From Bacteroidia bacterium (GTDB lineage Bacteria > Bacteroidota > Bacteroidia > Flavobacteriales > Flavobacteriaceae): a DNA stretch of 64,000 bases. Below are positions 4,529 to 55,251 of this stretch, piece after piece. Where the stretch lies: the NCBI GenBank assembly GCA_030431055.1, contig JAUIJA010000009.1, positions 14,665 to 78,664 of the forward strand, given 5' to 3'. The translations under genes and the position numbers were made by a program. The notes under the pieces are model-generated. The model ran no database searches, had not been told where the DNA came from, and saw only the letters and a program-made list of their open reading frames with translations. Position 1 is the stretch's first letter. Every line of letters begins with the position of its first letter.

Positions 4529-4649
4529 AGACACTTCGACAAGCTCAGTGTGACAATTTATAACGTCTGTTCAAGTGTTTTTGTTTCGATTCTCGATACT
4601 TTTCTTTCAGAAAAACTCGAATTGACGAAACAAAAATGTATCGAGAACT
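4529..4649. repeat. REP-like cluster between the TPR and barrel genes
   Basis: AGACACTTCGACAAGCTCAGTGTGACA (4529-4555), then TTCTCGATAC...ACTCGAATTGACG and ACGAAACAAAAATGTATCGAGAA (also at ~1611). Confidence 0.85.
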
Positions 4650-14701: not shown

Positions 14702-15702
14702 ACTATTTTACAACCAAATCTTTTATATTGATTTTTGAAATTAATATGCCATTTTTTCCATTCAGAAGTTAGATTTCCTGTTTTGTCAGCGTTATTTAAT
14801 ATTTGTACAATTTCAGTTTCTAAAATGTCTTTTGGTAAACTGGAAGTAACATCAAATTTATTATTAAACCAAGCCTCATTTAAAAACTTGTTGGCTTCAA
14901 ATATATCAAGATTTACATTTTTATATTTCTTATCAGAAATTGTGGCTGACGTTGAAAAACCGGTTTGAAAATACTCTTTTTTTGAATGTGCTATTTTACT
15001 ATTCAAATTAGTTTTTAAATATTCTAACGCATTTTGAATTTGTAAACCTTCATCTACTTTCCCCGTGTTGTTTTTCCAAAGCGACACAAAATAATCTTTT
15101 TTAAAAACAGAACCAGCAACCGAATAAATGTGGTAATAGGCTAAATTTCTTTCCGTTTTATATAAACCTAAAAACTTCATTAAATCGTTAAATCGGAAAC
15201 CATAAGTTTTAAAAATCTTTTTGTACAAAAACGAATTTCGCGTCAATAATTTAGGCTTTATGATATTGTAAATAGATTTACTTTCAATAACGTTTTTAGA
15301 AGTCAATTTAGGATTTCCCAACCAAAAAAGTTTCAAGAAAACTAAATTATCTTTAAATATTTCTTTATCTAATTCAACCAAATCTAAATCTTCAGTAAAC
15401 CAAAAATCGTCTTCCAACAATAAAAAATAATCACTTGAATTTTTTGCCGATTCAACCCAAAAACTAATTGGAATTTCGCCTTTAAAATCTTCAGTTAAAT
15501 TGGAACTTTTCTTATTGTATAAATCTGATTTAGTAACTACTACTTGCGGATATTTTTCTTGAATTTTATCTAAATATTGTTGTGGCGTTCCATCATCTAA
15601 AACAACAATTCTTTCAAATGATTTTTTAGCATGTTTTTCAATACTAAACAAACATCTATCGAGATAATATGGACGATTAAACGATTTAATTAAGATGTCC
15701 AT
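14698..15702 (-). CDS. Glycosyltransferase family 2-like
   Basis: [23 protein letters not shown]. Confidence 0.75.
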
Positions 15703-16787
15703 TCGTTCAAAACTTTAATAATTTTTGAAACCTCATCATCAGTTAAAACTCCATTCAATGGCAAACTCAATACTTCGTTGTGAATTTTCTCTGTAATAGG
15801 AAATGACAAATTATTCCATCCCGAAACTTCGGGATTCATTGCTTTTTGTTTATGAGGCGGAATTGGATAATGAATAATGGTTTCAATTCCGTTTTCCTTT
15901 AAATAATTTTGTAATTCGTTTCGTTTTTCTGTTCGAATTACGAATAAATGAAAAACATGATTTTCACTTTCATTCCAATATGGCAAAATAATTTTATCGT
16001 TTTTAACTTCAGACAAATAACGCTTTGCAATAACTCTACGTTTTTCATTTTCACTATTCAAATGCGGTAATTTCACATTTAAAAAAGCCGCTTGAATTTC
16101 GTCTAATCTAGAATTTACACCAATAAATTTGTTCTCGTATTTAACTTTCGAACCATAATTGCGAAGCATTTTGATAGTTTCAGCTAACTTTTCGTCATTC
16201 GCCACGACTGCTCCGCCATCACCTAAACAACCTAAATTTTTCCCTGGATAAAAACTGAAAGCTCTTGCATGACTTTCTTTAAAATTTAATCCGTGTGCTT
16301 GAGCCGCATCTTCAACAATTAATAGATTATGTTTTTCGGCAATTGCAGAAATTTTCTCCATTTCGCACAATTGTCCGTATAAGTGAACTGGTAAAATGGC
16401 TTTAGTTTTTGGAGAAACCTTCTCTTCTATTAAATCAGGATTGATATTATAGGTTTCCAAAATTGGTTCGACCAAAACCGGAACTAAATCGGCTTGTAAA
16501 ACGGCTAATATTGAAGCTATGTATGTATTTGCTGGAACTATAACTTCATCGCCTTTTTGAAGCTTTCCTAAATCGATATACGCTTTAAAAATAAGCACTA
16601 AAGCATCTAAACCATTTCCAACACCAATGCAATATTTTGAACCACAATATTTTGCAAAATTCTTTTCAAATTGGCTTACTTCGCTTCCAAGAACATACCA
16701 ACCATTATCTAAAAAAGATTGGAACTTTTCTTTGAATTCAACTTCAAAAGGTTGGTTTAACTTATGTAAATCGAGAAATTTTATCAC
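15690..16787 (-). CDS. DegT/DnrJ/EryC1/StrS aminotransferase (FdtB-like)
   Basis: [43 protein letters not shown]. Confidence 0.92.
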
Positions 16788-17764
16788 AACAAAACTGAAT
16801 TTAATTTCTCATAATTTTTCGTCTCAAATCGGTAAAAACTTTGTGTAATTGTTCTTGCGCCAAAACTTTCCTTCCAAAATAATAATCCGCTATTGATATT
16901 TTGACCTTGATTTTCATTTGAAATTCCAAAATCAAAATATTTTTTATTCTGAAAAACATCAGTTAGTAAATGGTGGTGTAAAAAATCTAAACTTAAATTG
17001 GTTTCTGCATTTGCTTTTCCTGAAATATATTGCGAATGAGCAACTGTTTCTGATTCAAAAATTGTAGTTCCAGCCACAATTTTATCGCCTAAATAAACAT
17101 TAAACTGACGAATGTTTTTTGGGAATTTTTCTTTTAAAAAAGTAATTTCAGCAAGAGAATGAACTGGTTTTGCTTGATGTTTTTCATTCAAATTTGGAAT
17201 TAAAATTTCATTCCAAAAAGCATCGAAACTGTTTTCTTCTTTCACTTCAAAACCTAAAGTCTTTGCTTTTGCAATTTCTTGCTTTCTTCCGTGTGAATAT
17301 TTAAAATTAGAAGCTAAATCAATAGTCGATAAAGTATCTCTTCTGATTAAATCTGCATTACATAAAAACGCTACATATTCTAATTCATCTGAAGGAAAAT
17401 CAGCATAAATTGACGGCAAAACTTTAACTTCAAAATTCTTTATTTCATTCTCATTTAAAAACTTCAAAACTTCTTGAAAAAGGATAATAAAATCAGACAA
17501 TTTAGTTTTACGATTAATTACAAGTCCGCCATAAGTCAAACCTTGATGCGAAAAAACAACATCATCTACTCTATTTGCTGGTAAAATTGCTTTTAAATTG
17601 TCTTTTTCATCTAAAACCAATAACGAAAAATCTTGAAGCCTATCTTGATGATATTCCATGAAATCGCGATGAAATAAAAAAGTTGCGTTTTTTGCATTGG
17701 CAACAAATTCGTTCCATTTATGATAATCATCTTTGGTATAAAGTCTTACAGAAAATTTCTTCAA
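16784..17764 (-). CDS. GNAT/FemAB-like acyltransferase
   Basis: [39 protein letters not shown]; probable TTG start at 17764. Confidence 0.75.
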
Positions 17765-26567: not shown

Positions 26568-27380
26568 ATGAAAAAAATAGAATCAATTCAAAATCCTTTT
26601 ATAAAATCACTTGTTCAATTACAAGAAAAAGCAAAAGCAAGAAAGCAAACTGGAACTTTTTTAATTGAAGGTCAACGCGAAATTGAATTAGCTTTAAAAG
26701 GTGAATATGAAATTGAATCTATCTTATTTTTACCAGAAATTATTTTAGAAAATCGACTAAATGAAATCACTTCCTCTATATTGACACAACGAGCGGAGTC
26801 GAGATGCGAACTAATAGAAATTTCAAAAGAAGTATATCAAAAATTAGCCTATCGCGATTCAACTGAAGGAATTTTAGCTGTCGCCAAAACAAAATCGCTT
26901 TCACTTCATGATTTAAAACTTTCAAAAAATCCGTTAATTTTAATTGCAGAAAGTTTAGAAAAACCCGGAAACTTAGGAGCAATTTTACGCACAGCTGATG
27001 CAGCTAATATTGATGCTGTCATTATTGCTAATCCGCGAACCGATTTATACAATCCAAATATCGTTCGTTCAAGCGTTGGTTGTTTATTTACACGTCAAAT
27101 TGCCATTGGAACATCAGAAGAAGTTATCGCGTTTTTAAAGCAGAATAACATTAATTTTTATTCGGCTACTTTACAAAACAGTACAGAATATCACACGCAA
27201 GATTACACAAAACCAACAGCGCTCGTTGTTGGAACTGAAGCAACCGGTTTAACTGAAATTTGGAGAAAAGAAAGTACTTCTAATATTATTATTCCTATGC
27301 AAGGCGAAATTGATTCTATGAATGTTTCTGTTGCTGCAGCAATTTTACTTTTTGAAGCAAAAAGACAACGCGGATTTTAA
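26568..27380 (+). CDS. TrmH/SpoU family RNA methyltransferase
   Basis: EKPGNLGAILRTADA, VVGTEATGL, IPMQGEIDSMNVSVAAA. Confidence 0.93.
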   Translation: MKKIESIQNPFIKSLVQLQEKAKARKQTGTFLIEGQREIELALKGEYEIESILFLPEIILENRLNEITSSILTQRAESRCELIEISKEVYQKLAYRDSTEGILAVAKTKSLSLHDLKLSKNPLILIAESLEKPGNLGAILRTADAANIDAVIIANPRTDLYNPNIVRSSVGCLFTRQIAIGTSEEVIAFLKQNNINFYSATLQNSTEYHTQDYTKPTALVVGTEATGLTEIWRKESTSNIIIPMQGEIDSMNVSVAAAILLFEAKRQRGF

Positions 27381-41791: not shown

Positions 41792-41856
41792 AGACACTTC
41801 GCTTCTCGATACATCCGATTTTATCGGAACACTCGAAGTGACGGCTCAGTGTGATA
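41792..41856. repeat. Nested REP-like elements
   Basis: AGACACTTCG[CTTCTCGATACA...CACTCGAAGTGACG]GCTCAGTGTGATA. Confidence 0.85.
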
Positions 41857-44062: not shown

Positions 44063-44902
44063 ATGGAAAACTTACAATCGACAATAGAACAAGCTTGGGA
44101 AAACAGAGCTTTATTACAAGAAGAAAATACGCAAAAAGCAATACGCGACGTAATTGAATTATTAGACAATGGAAAATTACGCGTTGCTGAACCAACATCA
44201 AACACTTCGACTTCGCTCAGTACTGGCTCTTGGCAAGTTAACGAATGGATTAAGAAAGCTGTTGTTATGTACTTCCCAATTCAAAAAATGGAAACTTGGG
44301 AAGCTGGTATTTTTGAATATCACGATAAAATGGAATTGAAGCGTAATTATGCTGAAAAAGGTGTGCGTGTTGTTCCACCAGCAACCGCTCGATATGGCTC
44401 TTATGTTTCAAAAGGTGTAATTATGATGCCTAGTTATGTAAACATTGGCGCTTATGTAGATGAAGGAACAATGGTTGATACTTGGGCAACAGTAGGAAGC
44501 TGTGCACAAATAGGTAAAGATGTTCACTTAAGTGGTGGTGTTGGAATCGGCGGTGTTTTAGAGCCTTTACAAGCTGCACCAGTAATTATCGAAGATGGAG
44601 CTTTCATTGGTTCGCGTTGTATAGTTGTAGAGGGTGTTCGTATTGAAAAAGAAGCGGTCTTAGGTGCTAATGTTGTATTGACTGGTTCGACTAAAATTAT
44701 TGATGTTACTGGAGATGAGCCAAAAGAACACAAAGGTTTTGTTCCTGCTCGTTCAGTTGTCATTCCTGGAAGTTACACTAAGAAATTCCCCGCTGGCGAG
44801 TATCAAGTTCCTTGTGCGTTAATTATAGGAAAACGTAAAGAAAGTACTGATAAGAAAACTTCACTTAACGACGCGTTGAGAGAATATAATGTAGCTGTTT
44901 AA
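44063..44902 (+). CDS. dapD: Tetrahydrodipicolinate N-succinyltransferase
   Basis: WQVNEWIKKAV, RVVPPA, MPSYVNIGAYV, DTWATVGSCAQIG, GGVLEPLQA. Confidence 0.97.
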   Translation: MENLQSTIEQAWENRALLQEENTQKAIRDVIELLDNGKLRVAEPTSNTSTSLSTGSWQVNEWIKKAVVMYFPIQKMETWEAGIFEYHDKMELKRNYAEKGVRVVPPATARYGSYVSKGVIMMPSYVNIGAYVDEGTMVDTWATVGSCAQIGKDVHLSGGVGIGGVLEPLQAAPVIIEDGAFIGSRCIVVEGVRIEKEAVLGANVVLTGSTKIIDVTGDEPKEHKGFVPARSVVIPGSYTKKFPAGEYQVPCALIIGKRKESTDKKTSLNDALREYNVAV

Positions 44903-52102: not shown

Positions 52103-53302
52103 ATGAGTATCTCAAAAAAAATAAAAAATTATTTTAAAAGAAAAGAAATTTTAAAGCAGCAACCTAATGCTAAAATCCCTAATCTTCATTATTTTGACAA
52201 TAATAAGAGAACAATAGTTTTTATAACTGAATTAATTCCAACCTTTGATAAAGACTCAGGATCAAATAGACTCAAAGAAATATTATTAACCTATAAAAGT
52301 CTTAACTATAATTGTGTTTTGTTAATTGAAAACTGTTTATTATACAATAAGTATATTCATTTTTTTGCTGAAAACAATATCATAACTTATACAGAAACAA
52401 ATTCTTTTAGATCTTATATTGCTTTTCTTAAATCATTAAATAAAGTTGACTATTTCTGGTATTACGGACCAAATTCTTTTAAAAATTATTTTCCTACTAT
52501 TTCTAAAAAGTTTAAGCAATCAAAAACTATTTATGATATGATTGACATTCATTTTTTGAGATATAAAAGAGCTATTGAATTAAATCCTACTAAATTATCA
52601 CTAAAAAAAAGGTATAATAAATATTTTAAGATTGAAACTGAACTGGTAAAAAAAGCAGATATAGTTGTCGCTATTTCCGACAAAGAAAAGGAAGTTATGA
52701 CAAAATATATCGATTCAAAAAAATTGATAACTGTATCAAACATTCATTATCCAAAAATTGATAAAAACGAAGTTGAACCTTTTAAAAATAGAAAAGACAT
52801 TATTTTTATAGGTTCGACTCATTCACCTAATATTGATGCTGTATATTACTTATACCAAGAAATCATGCCAAAAGTTTGGAGCTCAAATCCAGAAATCAAA
52901 CTAAATATCATTGGAAATATTAAAGACGTTATAACCGATGTTAGCCATCCAAACATTAACTTTTTAGGTTATGTCGAAAATATAGAATCTGTTTTCTTAA
53001 AAAGTAAAATGATGGTTGCTCCATTACGTTATGGTGCGGGAGTAAAAGGTAAAATAGGTCAAGCTTTTGAATATTACTTACCTGTTGTTACAACAAGTAT
53101 AGGCGCAGAAGGTATGTTTTTAGAAAATAATACAAACGCTTACATCACAGATGACACCAATACATTTGTAAATTATATATTAGAACTAAACGATAATGAA
53201 GAAAAATGGAACCTACTTTCGAGAAATTCAGAAAATAGTCTTTATCCCTTTTCTACAGTAAAACTAAAAGAAACTTTAACTGAAATCGAAACTAAATTTT
53301 AG
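52103..53302 (+). CDS. Glycosyltransferase family 4-like
   Basis: DKDSGSNR, HSPNIDAV, APLRYGAGVKGKI. Confidence 0.85.
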   Translation: MSISKKIKNYFKRKEILKQQPNAKIPNLHYFDNNKRTIVFITELIPTFDKDSGSNRLKEILLTYKSLNYNCVLLIENCLLYNKYIHFFAENNIITYTETNSFRSYIAFLKSLNKVDYFWYYGPNSFKNYFPTISKKFKQSKTIYDMIDIHFLRYKRAIELNPTKLSLKKRYNKYFKIETELVKKADIVVAISDKEKEVMTKYIDSKKLITVSNIHYPKIDKNEVEPFKNRKDIIFIGSTHSPNIDAVYYLYQEIMPKVWSSNPEIKLNIIGNIKDVITDVSHPNINFLGYVENIESVFLKSKMMVAPLRYGAGVKGKIGQAFEYYLPVVTTSIGAEGMFLENNTNAYITDDTNTFVNYILELNDNEEKWNLLSRNSENSLYPFSTVKLKETLTEIETKF

Positions 53303-55181: not shown

Positions 55182-55251
55182 TTTGTCATTCTGAATGAAG
55201 TGAAGAATCTCATAATTTATGTGACTTCTCGACTTCGCTCGAAGTGACAAA
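55182..55251. repeat. REP doublet with TTTGTCA...TGACAAA ends
   Basis: TGTCATTCTGAATGAAGTGAAGAATCT plus TTCTCGACTTCGCTCGAAGTGACA. Confidence 0.85.

What the first reader, a model, noticed from the sequence alone, without database searches (positions are those of the whole stretch)
44202..44226. REP unit translated in-frame inside dapD
ACACTTCGACTTCGCTCAGT shares ACACTTCGAC and GCTCAGT with the REP at 4531 and CGACTTCGCTC with 55230. It encodes NTSTSLSTG between the conserved LRVAEP and WQVNEW blocks: 12 residues here, where I recall about four in homologues (unverified). With trmH and the DegT gene, that would be up to three coding insertions in 64 kb, suggesting RPE-like peptide insertion by REPs in this lineage.
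Basis: partly seen in the sequence, partly recalled or inferred. Interest (0 to 1): 0.75.

Follow-up and report, generated by a model that had tools for sequence, protein, structure and literature searches.

The report
Hairpin repeat translated inside dapD
A 24-base copy of a small hairpin repeat that normally lies between genes sits in frame inside the lysine-pathway gene dapD, adds eight amino acids to an outer loop, and is shared in a strangely patchy way by many Flavobacterium species.

Summary
dapD (44063-44902, +) has a 13-residue loop (PTSNTSTSLSTGS) where solved DapD structures, 79 of the 80 other Flavobacteriales loci (one gave no match) and 55 of the 120 closest protein clusters have five. 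The gain is 24 nt (44204-44227).

It matches a hairpin repeat family, [variable stem]-TCGACNNNGCTC-[stem']-tail, whose other copies are intergenic. Free copies match it 24/27 and, for one dapD variant, 27/27, tail included.

It is not private to this lineage. Sixty-four of the 120 clusters, all named ones Flavobacterium, carry it at the same codon, in the same frame, with the same trailing Ser codon, so it arose once.

On dapD's own tree it is scattered: at least 9 state changes in 36 genes, and mixed clades with 99-100% bootstrap support. A deletion cannot turn one allele into the other. I infer allele exchange by short-patch recombination.

Its synonymous sites are almost frozen (third-position diversity 0.10 against 0.51 gene-wide). 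The rare codons TCG and CTC in the repeat core never vary.

A second 24-nt repeat-bearing insert lies in a trmH-family gene (26775-26798). The DegT claim is not supported.

This is a small relative of Rickettsia RPEs and of REPs found inside ORFs.

The parts
44063..44902 (+). dapD, 2,3,4,5-tetrahydropyridine-2,6-dicarboxylate N-succinyltransferase, 279 aa, intact
   Evidence: ORF. Pfam PF14805/PF14602/PF00132 and source names. PDB homologues at E 1e-64 to 1e-74.
44204..44227 (+). 24-nt in-frame insert (codons 48-55, TSTSLSTG) at the tip of the N-terminal-domain beta-hairpin
   Evidence: Codon alignments with insert-less orthologues. 8-residue gap against PDB sequences. Structure model: strands 42-44 and 57-59 flank a low-confidence loop 46-57.
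44207..44218 (+). Repeat core TCGACTTCGCTC, flanked by the short stem ACT/AGT; its codons TCG and CTC are invariant in all insert-bearing genes
44228..44230 (+). Ser codon TCT that always follows the insert (TCN in every bearer; GGN in most insert-less genes). It also follows the unit in a free copy of the repeat.
   Evidence: Locus L109 reads ...AGTGCAGGCTCTT.
4530..4554 (+). Intergenic copy of the repeat: GACACT TCGACAAGCTC AGTGTGAC
   Evidence: 5-bp stem.
55221..55248 (+). Intergenic copy: GTGACTTC TCGACTTCGCTC GAAGTGAC
55185..55211 (-). Degenerate copy in the opposite orientation (reverse complement GAGATTCT TCACTTCATTC AGAATGAC). With 55221-55248 it forms an inverted pair.
   Evidence: The orientation is read from the sequence.
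41794..41856 (+). Intergenic copy ACACT TCG...GCTC AGTGT whose loop is interrupted by about 40 nt of further hairpin sequence. The orthologous site in L086 holds an uninterrupted copy.
26775..26798 (+). Second coding insert: 24 nt (8 aa, placement approximate) in a trmH-family RNA methyltransferase gene (26568-27380). It holds the repeat core on the minus strand at 26791-26802.

Best explanation
One copy of a 24-nt REP-like hairpin unit landed in frame in dapD of an ancestral Flavobacterium. It sits at the tip of a beta-hairpin in the N-terminal domain, a domain that takes no direct part in the active site. It has been translated since as TS(T/S)(S/L)L(S/G)T(G/S), followed by Ser.

Shown:
- The gain, its position and its frame.
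- Its match to the repeat family.
- Its presence in many Flavobacterium lineages and absence from other Flavobacteriales.
- Its scattered distribution on the dapD tree.
- The near-absence of synonymous change inside it.

Inferred:
- A single origin, from the shared site, frame, stem, tail and trailing TCN codon.
- Later spread or replacement of the insert-bearing and insert-less alleles between related lineages by short-patch homologous recombination across the highly conserved flanks.
- Tolerance by the enzyme.
- Either nucleotide-level constraint on the repeat core, or a younger age of the insert haplotype than of the gene backbones.
For: Gain and distribution:
- 64 of 120 closest DapD clusters have a 13-aa loop and 55 have a 5-aa loop.
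- 79 of the 80 Flavobacteriales genome loci have 5 aa; L002 gave no match to the loop pattern.
- PDB homologues lack the 8 aa.

Match to the repeat:
- The family is [stem] TCGACNNNGCTC [stem'] tail, with 11 non-dapD copies in 1.59 Mb of related loci. Four were checked against ORFs and all are intergenic; in a longest-ORF screen most of the others lie under no long ORF.
- L021:18571 matches the dapD insert of the PKGD clade (L085) at 24 of 27 positions, tail included.
- Seven viral contigs match the L102/L099 dapD variant at 27 of 27; L110 has the tail AGTACAGGCT.

Single origin:
- Every bearer has the same site, frame, ACT/AGY stem, ACA RGY tail and TCN codon.

Patchiness:
- Mixed clades have 99-100% bootstrap support, insert monophyly appears in 0 of 300 replicates, and Fitch parsimony needs at least 9 changes in 36 genes (trees).
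- Flanks stay native. The insert-less loop of L015/L009 is identical in sequence to that of L016/L017.

Frozen sites:
- Only 4 of 123 amino-acid-invariant 4/6-fold codons are invariant as codons, and 2 of them are TCG and CTC in the insert.
- Third-position diversity is 0.10 in the insert and 0.51 gene-wide. None of 100,000 random codon sets is as low.
- CTC is 1.7% of Leu codons here.

Reality of the sequence and location:
- Independent contigs, including one from RNA, carry it.
Against: - A clean 24-nt indel explains only the rare insert-less genes with Ser TCN (L038, L106). Against the common GGN allele the change is 27 nt for 3.
- For transfer between clades, the upstream crossover would have to fall within a few bases of the insert, because the three variable loop codons just upstream stay clade-specific.
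- No flanking site travels with the insert, and the 5' and 3' halves of the gene give no conflicting trees. So no recombination tract has actually been seen.
- The dapD copy does not fold as a hairpin (MFE 0).
- In one large clade a core base is changed (TCGTC).
- The structure model is poor (pLDDT 47).
Confidence: 0.7

Rival explanations
1. The 24-nt unit is an active small mobile element that repeatedly inserts into and excises from this exact dapD site in different lineages, through a hairpin-specific enzyme of the HUH/RAYT kind.
For: - At least 9 state changes with native flanks.
- Three separate 24-nt presence/absence differences: dapD, trmH, and phage locus L109 against L107/L112.
- L102 and L038 differ by a clean 24-nt indel.
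- The core is conserved as if something recognises it.
- The 18-mer occurs in contigs of GC 0.32-0.73.
Against: - All dapD copies share the same stem, the same tail and near-identical variable core bases, whereas free copies vary widely.
- The common GGN allele cannot be reached by clean excision.
- Insert variants follow clades, which indicates vertical descent.
- No transposase was looked for or found.
- The L109 difference could be simple tandem slippage.
Confidence: 0.15
2. The insert is old and ancestral to a large Flavobacterium clade, and the insert-less genes inside that clade lost it many times by deletion.
For: - Bearers occur in all major subclades, and insert variants are clade-specific.
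- Ser TCN insert-less genes (L038, L106) look like clean deletions.
Against: - No deletion of the insert regenerates GGN.
- L015/L009 have the same loop sequence as their insert-less neighbours L016/L017.
- The only 24-nt-spaced microhomology (CTT) would leave Thr ACT, which is never seen (read from the sequence).
- About 13 losses would be needed (read from the tree).
- Ser in P0004 and P0087 is AGT, an ordinary point change.
Confidence: 0.1
3. The insert is not repeat-derived. It arose by local slippage (ACTTCG ACTTCG) and resembles the repeat by chance.
For: - The first 12 nt are a tandem hexamer.
- The copy has only a 3-4 bp stem and no predicted fold.
- A relaxed repeat look-alike in the glycosyltransferase at 52814 proved to be a native conserved motif.
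Against: - The strict 9-base core pattern is expected about 0.06 times in the window (my estimate from base composition), yet it coincides exactly with two lineage-variable 8-aa inserts.
- Matches of 24/27 and 27/27 to free copies include the tail.
Confidence: 0.05

Closest known systems
Rickettsia palindromic elements (RPE), as cited in PMC3733652 and recalled from Ogata et al. 2000
   Same: A palindromic repeat family with copies inserted in frame in conserved, apparently functional genes. The added peptide falls in a tolerated part of the protein.
   Different: RPEs are roughly 100-150 bp and add tens of residues (from memory); this unit is 24 nt and adds 8 aa. There is no sequence relation. 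Only two coding copies are seen here. The dapD copy is a shared allele across species with a patchy distribution.
GTAG- and CGTC-tagged REPs located inside ORFs (Di Nocera et al. 2013, PMC3733652)
   Same: Short hairpin repeats, mostly extragenic and downstream of genes, with a minority lying wholly inside ORFs and translated.
   Different: No GTAG or CGTC tag is present. Here the 12-nt loop is the conserved part and the stems vary, and the same loop occurs in contigs of GC 0.32-0.73. Association with a RAYT transposase was not examined.
REPIN/RAYT systems (PMC3116915, PMC3337134)
   Same: One inverted pair of units (55185-55248) has the layout of a REPIN doublet. Hairpin repeats persist within a lineage.
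   Different: The coding copies are single units. Copy number in the sampled DNA is low. No RAYT gene was identified.

Membership tests
DapD (tetrahydrodipicolinate N-succinyltransferase) | THDPS_N_2 N-terminal domain plus a left-handed beta-helix of hexapeptide repeats; full-length similarity to solved DapD structures | tested here: met
   PF14805, PF14602 and PF00132. E = 1.8e-74 over residues 3-272 to 9o8n, and comparable matches to 1kgq, 3bxy and 3gos.
REP (classical repetitive extragenic palindrome) | Short (20-40 nt) imperfect palindrome able to form a stem-loop | tested here: inconclusive
   Free copies have 4-7 bp complementary, co-varying stems around an 11-12 nt loop. Their predicted stability is no better than shuffled sequence, and the dapD copy has MFE 0.
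REP (classical repetitive extragenic palindrome) | Many copies per genome, mainly extragenic | tested here: inconclusive
   Four strict copies in 64 kb, two intergenic and two coding, plus one interrupted copy. Eleven non-dapD copies in 1.59 Mb of related loci, the four checked ones intergenic. No whole genome was available for a count.
REP (classical repetitive extragenic palindrome) | Conserved GTAG or CGTC tetranucleotide at one end (PMC3733652) | tested here: not met
   Ends read ...AGTGTGACA or GAAGTGACA. Neither tag appears in any copy listed.
REP (classical repetitive extragenic palindrome) | Associated RAYT (Y1 transposase) gene | not tested
   Window ORFs were not screened for PF01797. 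Whole genomes could not be reached.
RPE-type coding insertion | Repeat copy inserted in frame in a conserved gene whose reading frame stays intact, absent from orthologues | tested here: met
   dapD. trmH family.
RPE-type coding insertion | Element of about 100-150 bp belonging to the Rickettsia RPE sequence families | tested here: not met
   The unit is 24 nt. Sequence comparison with RPE families was not run.
RPE-type coding insertion | Inserted peptide lies on the protein surface, away from functional sites | tested here: inconclusive
   The insert falls in a gap at a hairpin turn in alignments to PDB sequences, and in a loop between strands 42-44 and 57-59 of a low-confidence model. [quoted passage not shown]
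MITE | Terminal inverted repeats, a target-site duplication, and a length of 70-300 bp | tested here: not met
   The unit is 24 nt, and there is no duplication at either junction (codon alignments).

The most novel reading that the evidence does not exclude
The 24-nt unit may be a living element rather than a fossil. In this reading, a hairpin with a loop conserved across phyla (TCGACNNNGCTC) is recognised by a conserved factor, can be added or removed precisely at one codon of an essential gene, and is kept at the nucleotide level inside the coding sequence because the DNA or mRNA motif itself does something.
Probability: 0.15. Interest if true: 0.8.

Novelty: new variant of a known kind. Interest (0 to 1): 0.5.

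Why it matters
In-frame repeat insertions are best known from Rickettsia. This case shows the same thing in free-living Flavobacterium with a much smaller unit.

Two features are not part of the known picture:
- One insertion allele of an essential gene is scattered across the gene's own tree.
- Synonymous sites inside a translated repeat are kept almost unchanged.

If the constraint is real, a repeat motif has a sequence-level role inside a coding region. If it is not, the locus is a clean marker of very short-tract gene exchange between Flavobacterium species.

Tried and rejected
- **Genome scan.** Insert-bearing DNA came instead from exact-protein look-ups and from a metagenome scan anchored on the flanks and blind to the insert sequence.
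- **Structure.** The second gave a poor model (pLDDT 47), so no fold search was run.
- **RNA families.** Rfam gave nothing at gathering score in the window, nothing meaningful around the insert, and nothing in a phage contig with four copies.
- **Literature.** A search for the core sequence found only unrelated primers.
- **Recombination tract.** No site is associated with the insert after allowing for multiple testing. The 5' and 3' halves show no supported tree conflict.
- **Clean excision.** The Ser in P0004 and P0087 is AGT, a point change from GGT. Only L038, L106 and L032 have TCN.
- **Third coding copy.** The relaxed hit at 52814 lies in the native motif FIGS.H.PNID, conserved in all homologues. 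DegT has no core.
- **Cluster look-up.** It added no taxonomy.
- **Read-level polymorphism.** This could not be tested because all runs are held as contigs.

Full report
**What is at the coordinates.** The ORF 44063-44902 (+) encodes a 279-aa DapD. It carries PF14805 plus hexapeptide repeats and matches solved DapD structures at E = 1e-64 to 1e-74. In frame it reads N-T-S-T-S-L-S. The leading AC belongs to the native Asn47 codon.

**The gain is real.** Among the 120 closest protein clusters, 64 have a 13-residue loop between GKLRVAE and WQVNEW and 55 have a 5-residue loop. The protein lengths are 279 and 271 aa. Of 80 genome loci from Flavobacterium, Chryseobacterium, Tenacibaculum, Winogradskyella, Kordia and others, 79 have five residues and one gave no match. 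So do the solved structures. Codon alignment places the gain at 44204-44227, ACT TCG ACT TCG CTC AGT ACT GGC, followed by TCT where most insert-less genes have GGN.

It is not an assembly artefact. Contigs of public runs X1/X2 match the window with 0 differences (the two look like the same data). A metatranscriptome contig from X4, 31 differences away, also carries the insert. Other species in the same samples show PTENG and PTANG loops.

**It is a copy of a repeat.** The motif TCGA[CG]N2-4GCTC[AG] occurs four times in the window. From the base composition I expect about 0.06 chance matches to the strict 9-base core. Two copies are intergenic hairpins, at 4530-4554 and 55221-55248. The other two lie in dapD and in a trmH-family gene.

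In 1.59 Mb of related loci there are 11 further non-dapD copies of the strict core. They have the form [4-7 bp variable stem]-TCGACNNNGCTC-[complementary stem]-(T)GACA. The four I checked against ORFs are intergenic, and in a longest-ORF screen most of the others lie under no long ORF.

The tail of the dapD insert, which at first looked foreign to the repeat, is also found in free copies:
- L021:18571 reads ACACT TCGACTCCGCTC AGTGCAGGCT, which matches the PKGD-clade insert (L085) at 24 of 27 positions.
- L110 ends in AGTACAGGCT.
- Seven viral contigs read ATACTTCGACTTCGCTCAGTACAAGTT, identical over 27 nt to the L102/L099 dapD variant.
- L109 reads ...GCAGGCTCTT, which covers the trailing TCT as well.

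The 18-mer ACTTCGACTTCGCTCAGT occurs in 41 viral-contig stretches whose GC runs from 0.32 to 0.73, with different stems. In one phage contig the copies sit between co-directional genes. The predicted hairpins are weak, and the dapD copy does not fold at all. No Rfam family matches.

**It is not private to this lineage, and it arose once.** Eighteen insert-bearing dapD sequences were collected: the window, five from exact-protein look-ups, and twelve from a metagenome scan whose pattern constrained only the flanks. All read ACT TCG (ACT/ACA/TCT) T(C/T)G CTC AG(T/C) AC(A/T) (G/A)G(C/T) TC(T/A/C), apart from one with GCT as the first codon. They share the site, the frame, the stem and the tail, and the preceding base is T in all but the window. 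Free copies of the repeat differ widely in stem and in the three variable core bases. Independent insertions would therefore not look this alike.

Named bearers are all Flavobacterium: F. sasangense, F. faecale, F. flavipallidum, and strains NG2 and UMI-01. The same scan also found two unrelated 8-aa inserts at this loop (L094, L095), so the position tolerates extra length.

**The distribution is patchy on the gene's own tree.** With the loop masked, the insert falls in at least seven separate places. These mixed clades have 99-100% bootstrap support:
- L013 + L081 + L100
- WIN + L086 + L087
- L083 + L003
- L102 + L038 + L049
- L015 + L009 + L101 + L082
- L004 + the L085 group

Insert monophyly appears in 0 of 300 replicates, and Fitch parsimony needs at least 9 changes in 36 genes. 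The window's gene is 86-88% identical in DNA to insert-less L086 and L087, but only about 80% identical to other bearers.

Flanks stay native, including the three variable loop codons just upstream. No deletion of the insert regenerates GGN. The insert-less loop of L015/L009 is identical in sequence to that of its neighbours L016/L017, so it was not re-evolved. Only L038 (TCT), L106 (TCA) and L032 (TCG) look like clean empty sites. The Ser in P0004 and P0087 is AGT.

No flanking site travels with the insert, and the 5' and 3' halves of the gene give no conflicting supported splits.

I therefore infer exchange of the two allele types between related lineages across the very conserved flanks, or a long-lived shared polymorphism. 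I do not infer repeated de novo events. No tract has been seen directly, so this step is the weakest.

**The insert hardly changes at synonymous sites.** I compared 12 non-redundant bearers (76-95% DNA identity):
- Only 4 of 123 amino-acid-invariant 4/6-fold codons are invariant as codons, and two of them are TCG (Ser49) and CTC (Leu52) in the repeat core.
- Between clades, four-fold divergence is 0.53 gene-wide, 0.31 at non-core insert codons and 0.00 at core codons.
- Mean third-position diversity is 0.10 in the insert against 0.51 elsewhere, and none of 100,000 random codon sets is as low.

CTC is the joint-rarest Leu codon here (1.7%, equal with CTG) in a window of 30% GC. Insert variants follow clades, so the insert is at least as old as those clades. 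Recent spread alone therefore does not easily explain the freeze, and nucleotide-level constraint on the core is the more likely reading. One large clade has changed a core base (TCGTC), which cautions against a simple binding-site story.

**Effect on the protein.** The insert lies between strands 42-44 and 57-59 in a low-confidence loop. The model as a whole is poor (pLDDT 47). In P. aeruginosa DapD the active site is built from the central and C-terminal domains, and N-terminal domains vary widely between DapD enzymes (PMC3281039). The gene is intact in 64 clusters. A tolerated loop extension is the most likely effect. This is inferred, not tested.

**The other claimed coding insertions.** The trmH-family gene (26568-27380) is 270 aa, whereas nearly all of the other 119 listed homologues are 259-264 aa (most 262) and none shares the extra segment. 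That segment, about 26775-26798, holds the core on the minus strand: GCATC TCGACTCCGCTC GTTGTGTCAA. This insert is private to the window's lineage. The DegT gene (15693-16808, -) has no core. A relaxed hit at 52814 lies in a native conserved motif of a glycosyltransferase.

**Comparison with what is known.** REPs inside ORFs and Rickettsia RPEs are established (PMC3733652). This case shares in-frame, tolerated insertion of a hairpin repeat. It differs in four ways: the unit is only 24 nt; it lacks the GTAG or CGTC tag; the loop is conserved and the stems vary; and the dapD copy is a trans-lineage allele with frozen synonymous sites.

Noticed in passing
window 26568-27380, insert about 26775-26798: A trmH-family RNA methyltransferase carries a lineage-private 8-aa insert holding the repeat core on the minus strand. 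Nearly all of the other 119 listed homologues are 259-264 aa (most 262), against 270 here, and none shares the segment.
   Followed up: yes
window 41794-41856; L086:7750-7785: An intergenic repeat between mazG and a DUF5606 gene is shared with L086. In the window its loop is interrupted by about 40 nt that themselves contain hairpins, so repeats are nested inside a repeat. L087 lacks the whole segment.
   Followed up: partly
L109 against L107 and L112 (viral contigs): At the same phage locus, L109 has one extra tandem 24-nt unit (TCTTCGACTACGCTCAGTGCAGGC) inside a terminator-like hairpin. This is the same unit length as the dapD and trmH inserts.
   Followed up: partly
L113-L153 (viral contigs): The exact 18-mer ACTTCGACTTCGCTCAGT occurs in contigs of GC 0.32-0.73 with different stems. 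Several copies lie inside long ORFs in the TSTSLS frame (for example L121, L127, L128, L131). Whether those are insertions was not checked.
   Followed up: no
L094:1309-1371 and L095:10412-10474: Two other dapD genes have unrelated 8-aa inserts (TGLDGGGQ, GAPPNTNK) at the same loop.
   Followed up: no
trmH homologue listed: One homologue has a different insert (KSSNLSFRAH) at the same variable loop. Its peptide resembles translations of the other half-repeat type seen at 55185.
   Followed up: no
window 52806-52832: A hairpin-like look-alike (AGGT TCGACTCATTC ACCT) in a glycosyltransferase gene encodes the native conserved motif FIGS.H.PNID. It is a useful false positive.
   Followed up: yes
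window 44907 onward; L081-L087 downstream of dapD: Gene content just downstream of dapD differs between close relatives: a sulfatase-family gene here and in L087, various glycosyltransferases elsewhere. dapD therefore borders a variable surface-polysaccharide region.
   Followed up: no
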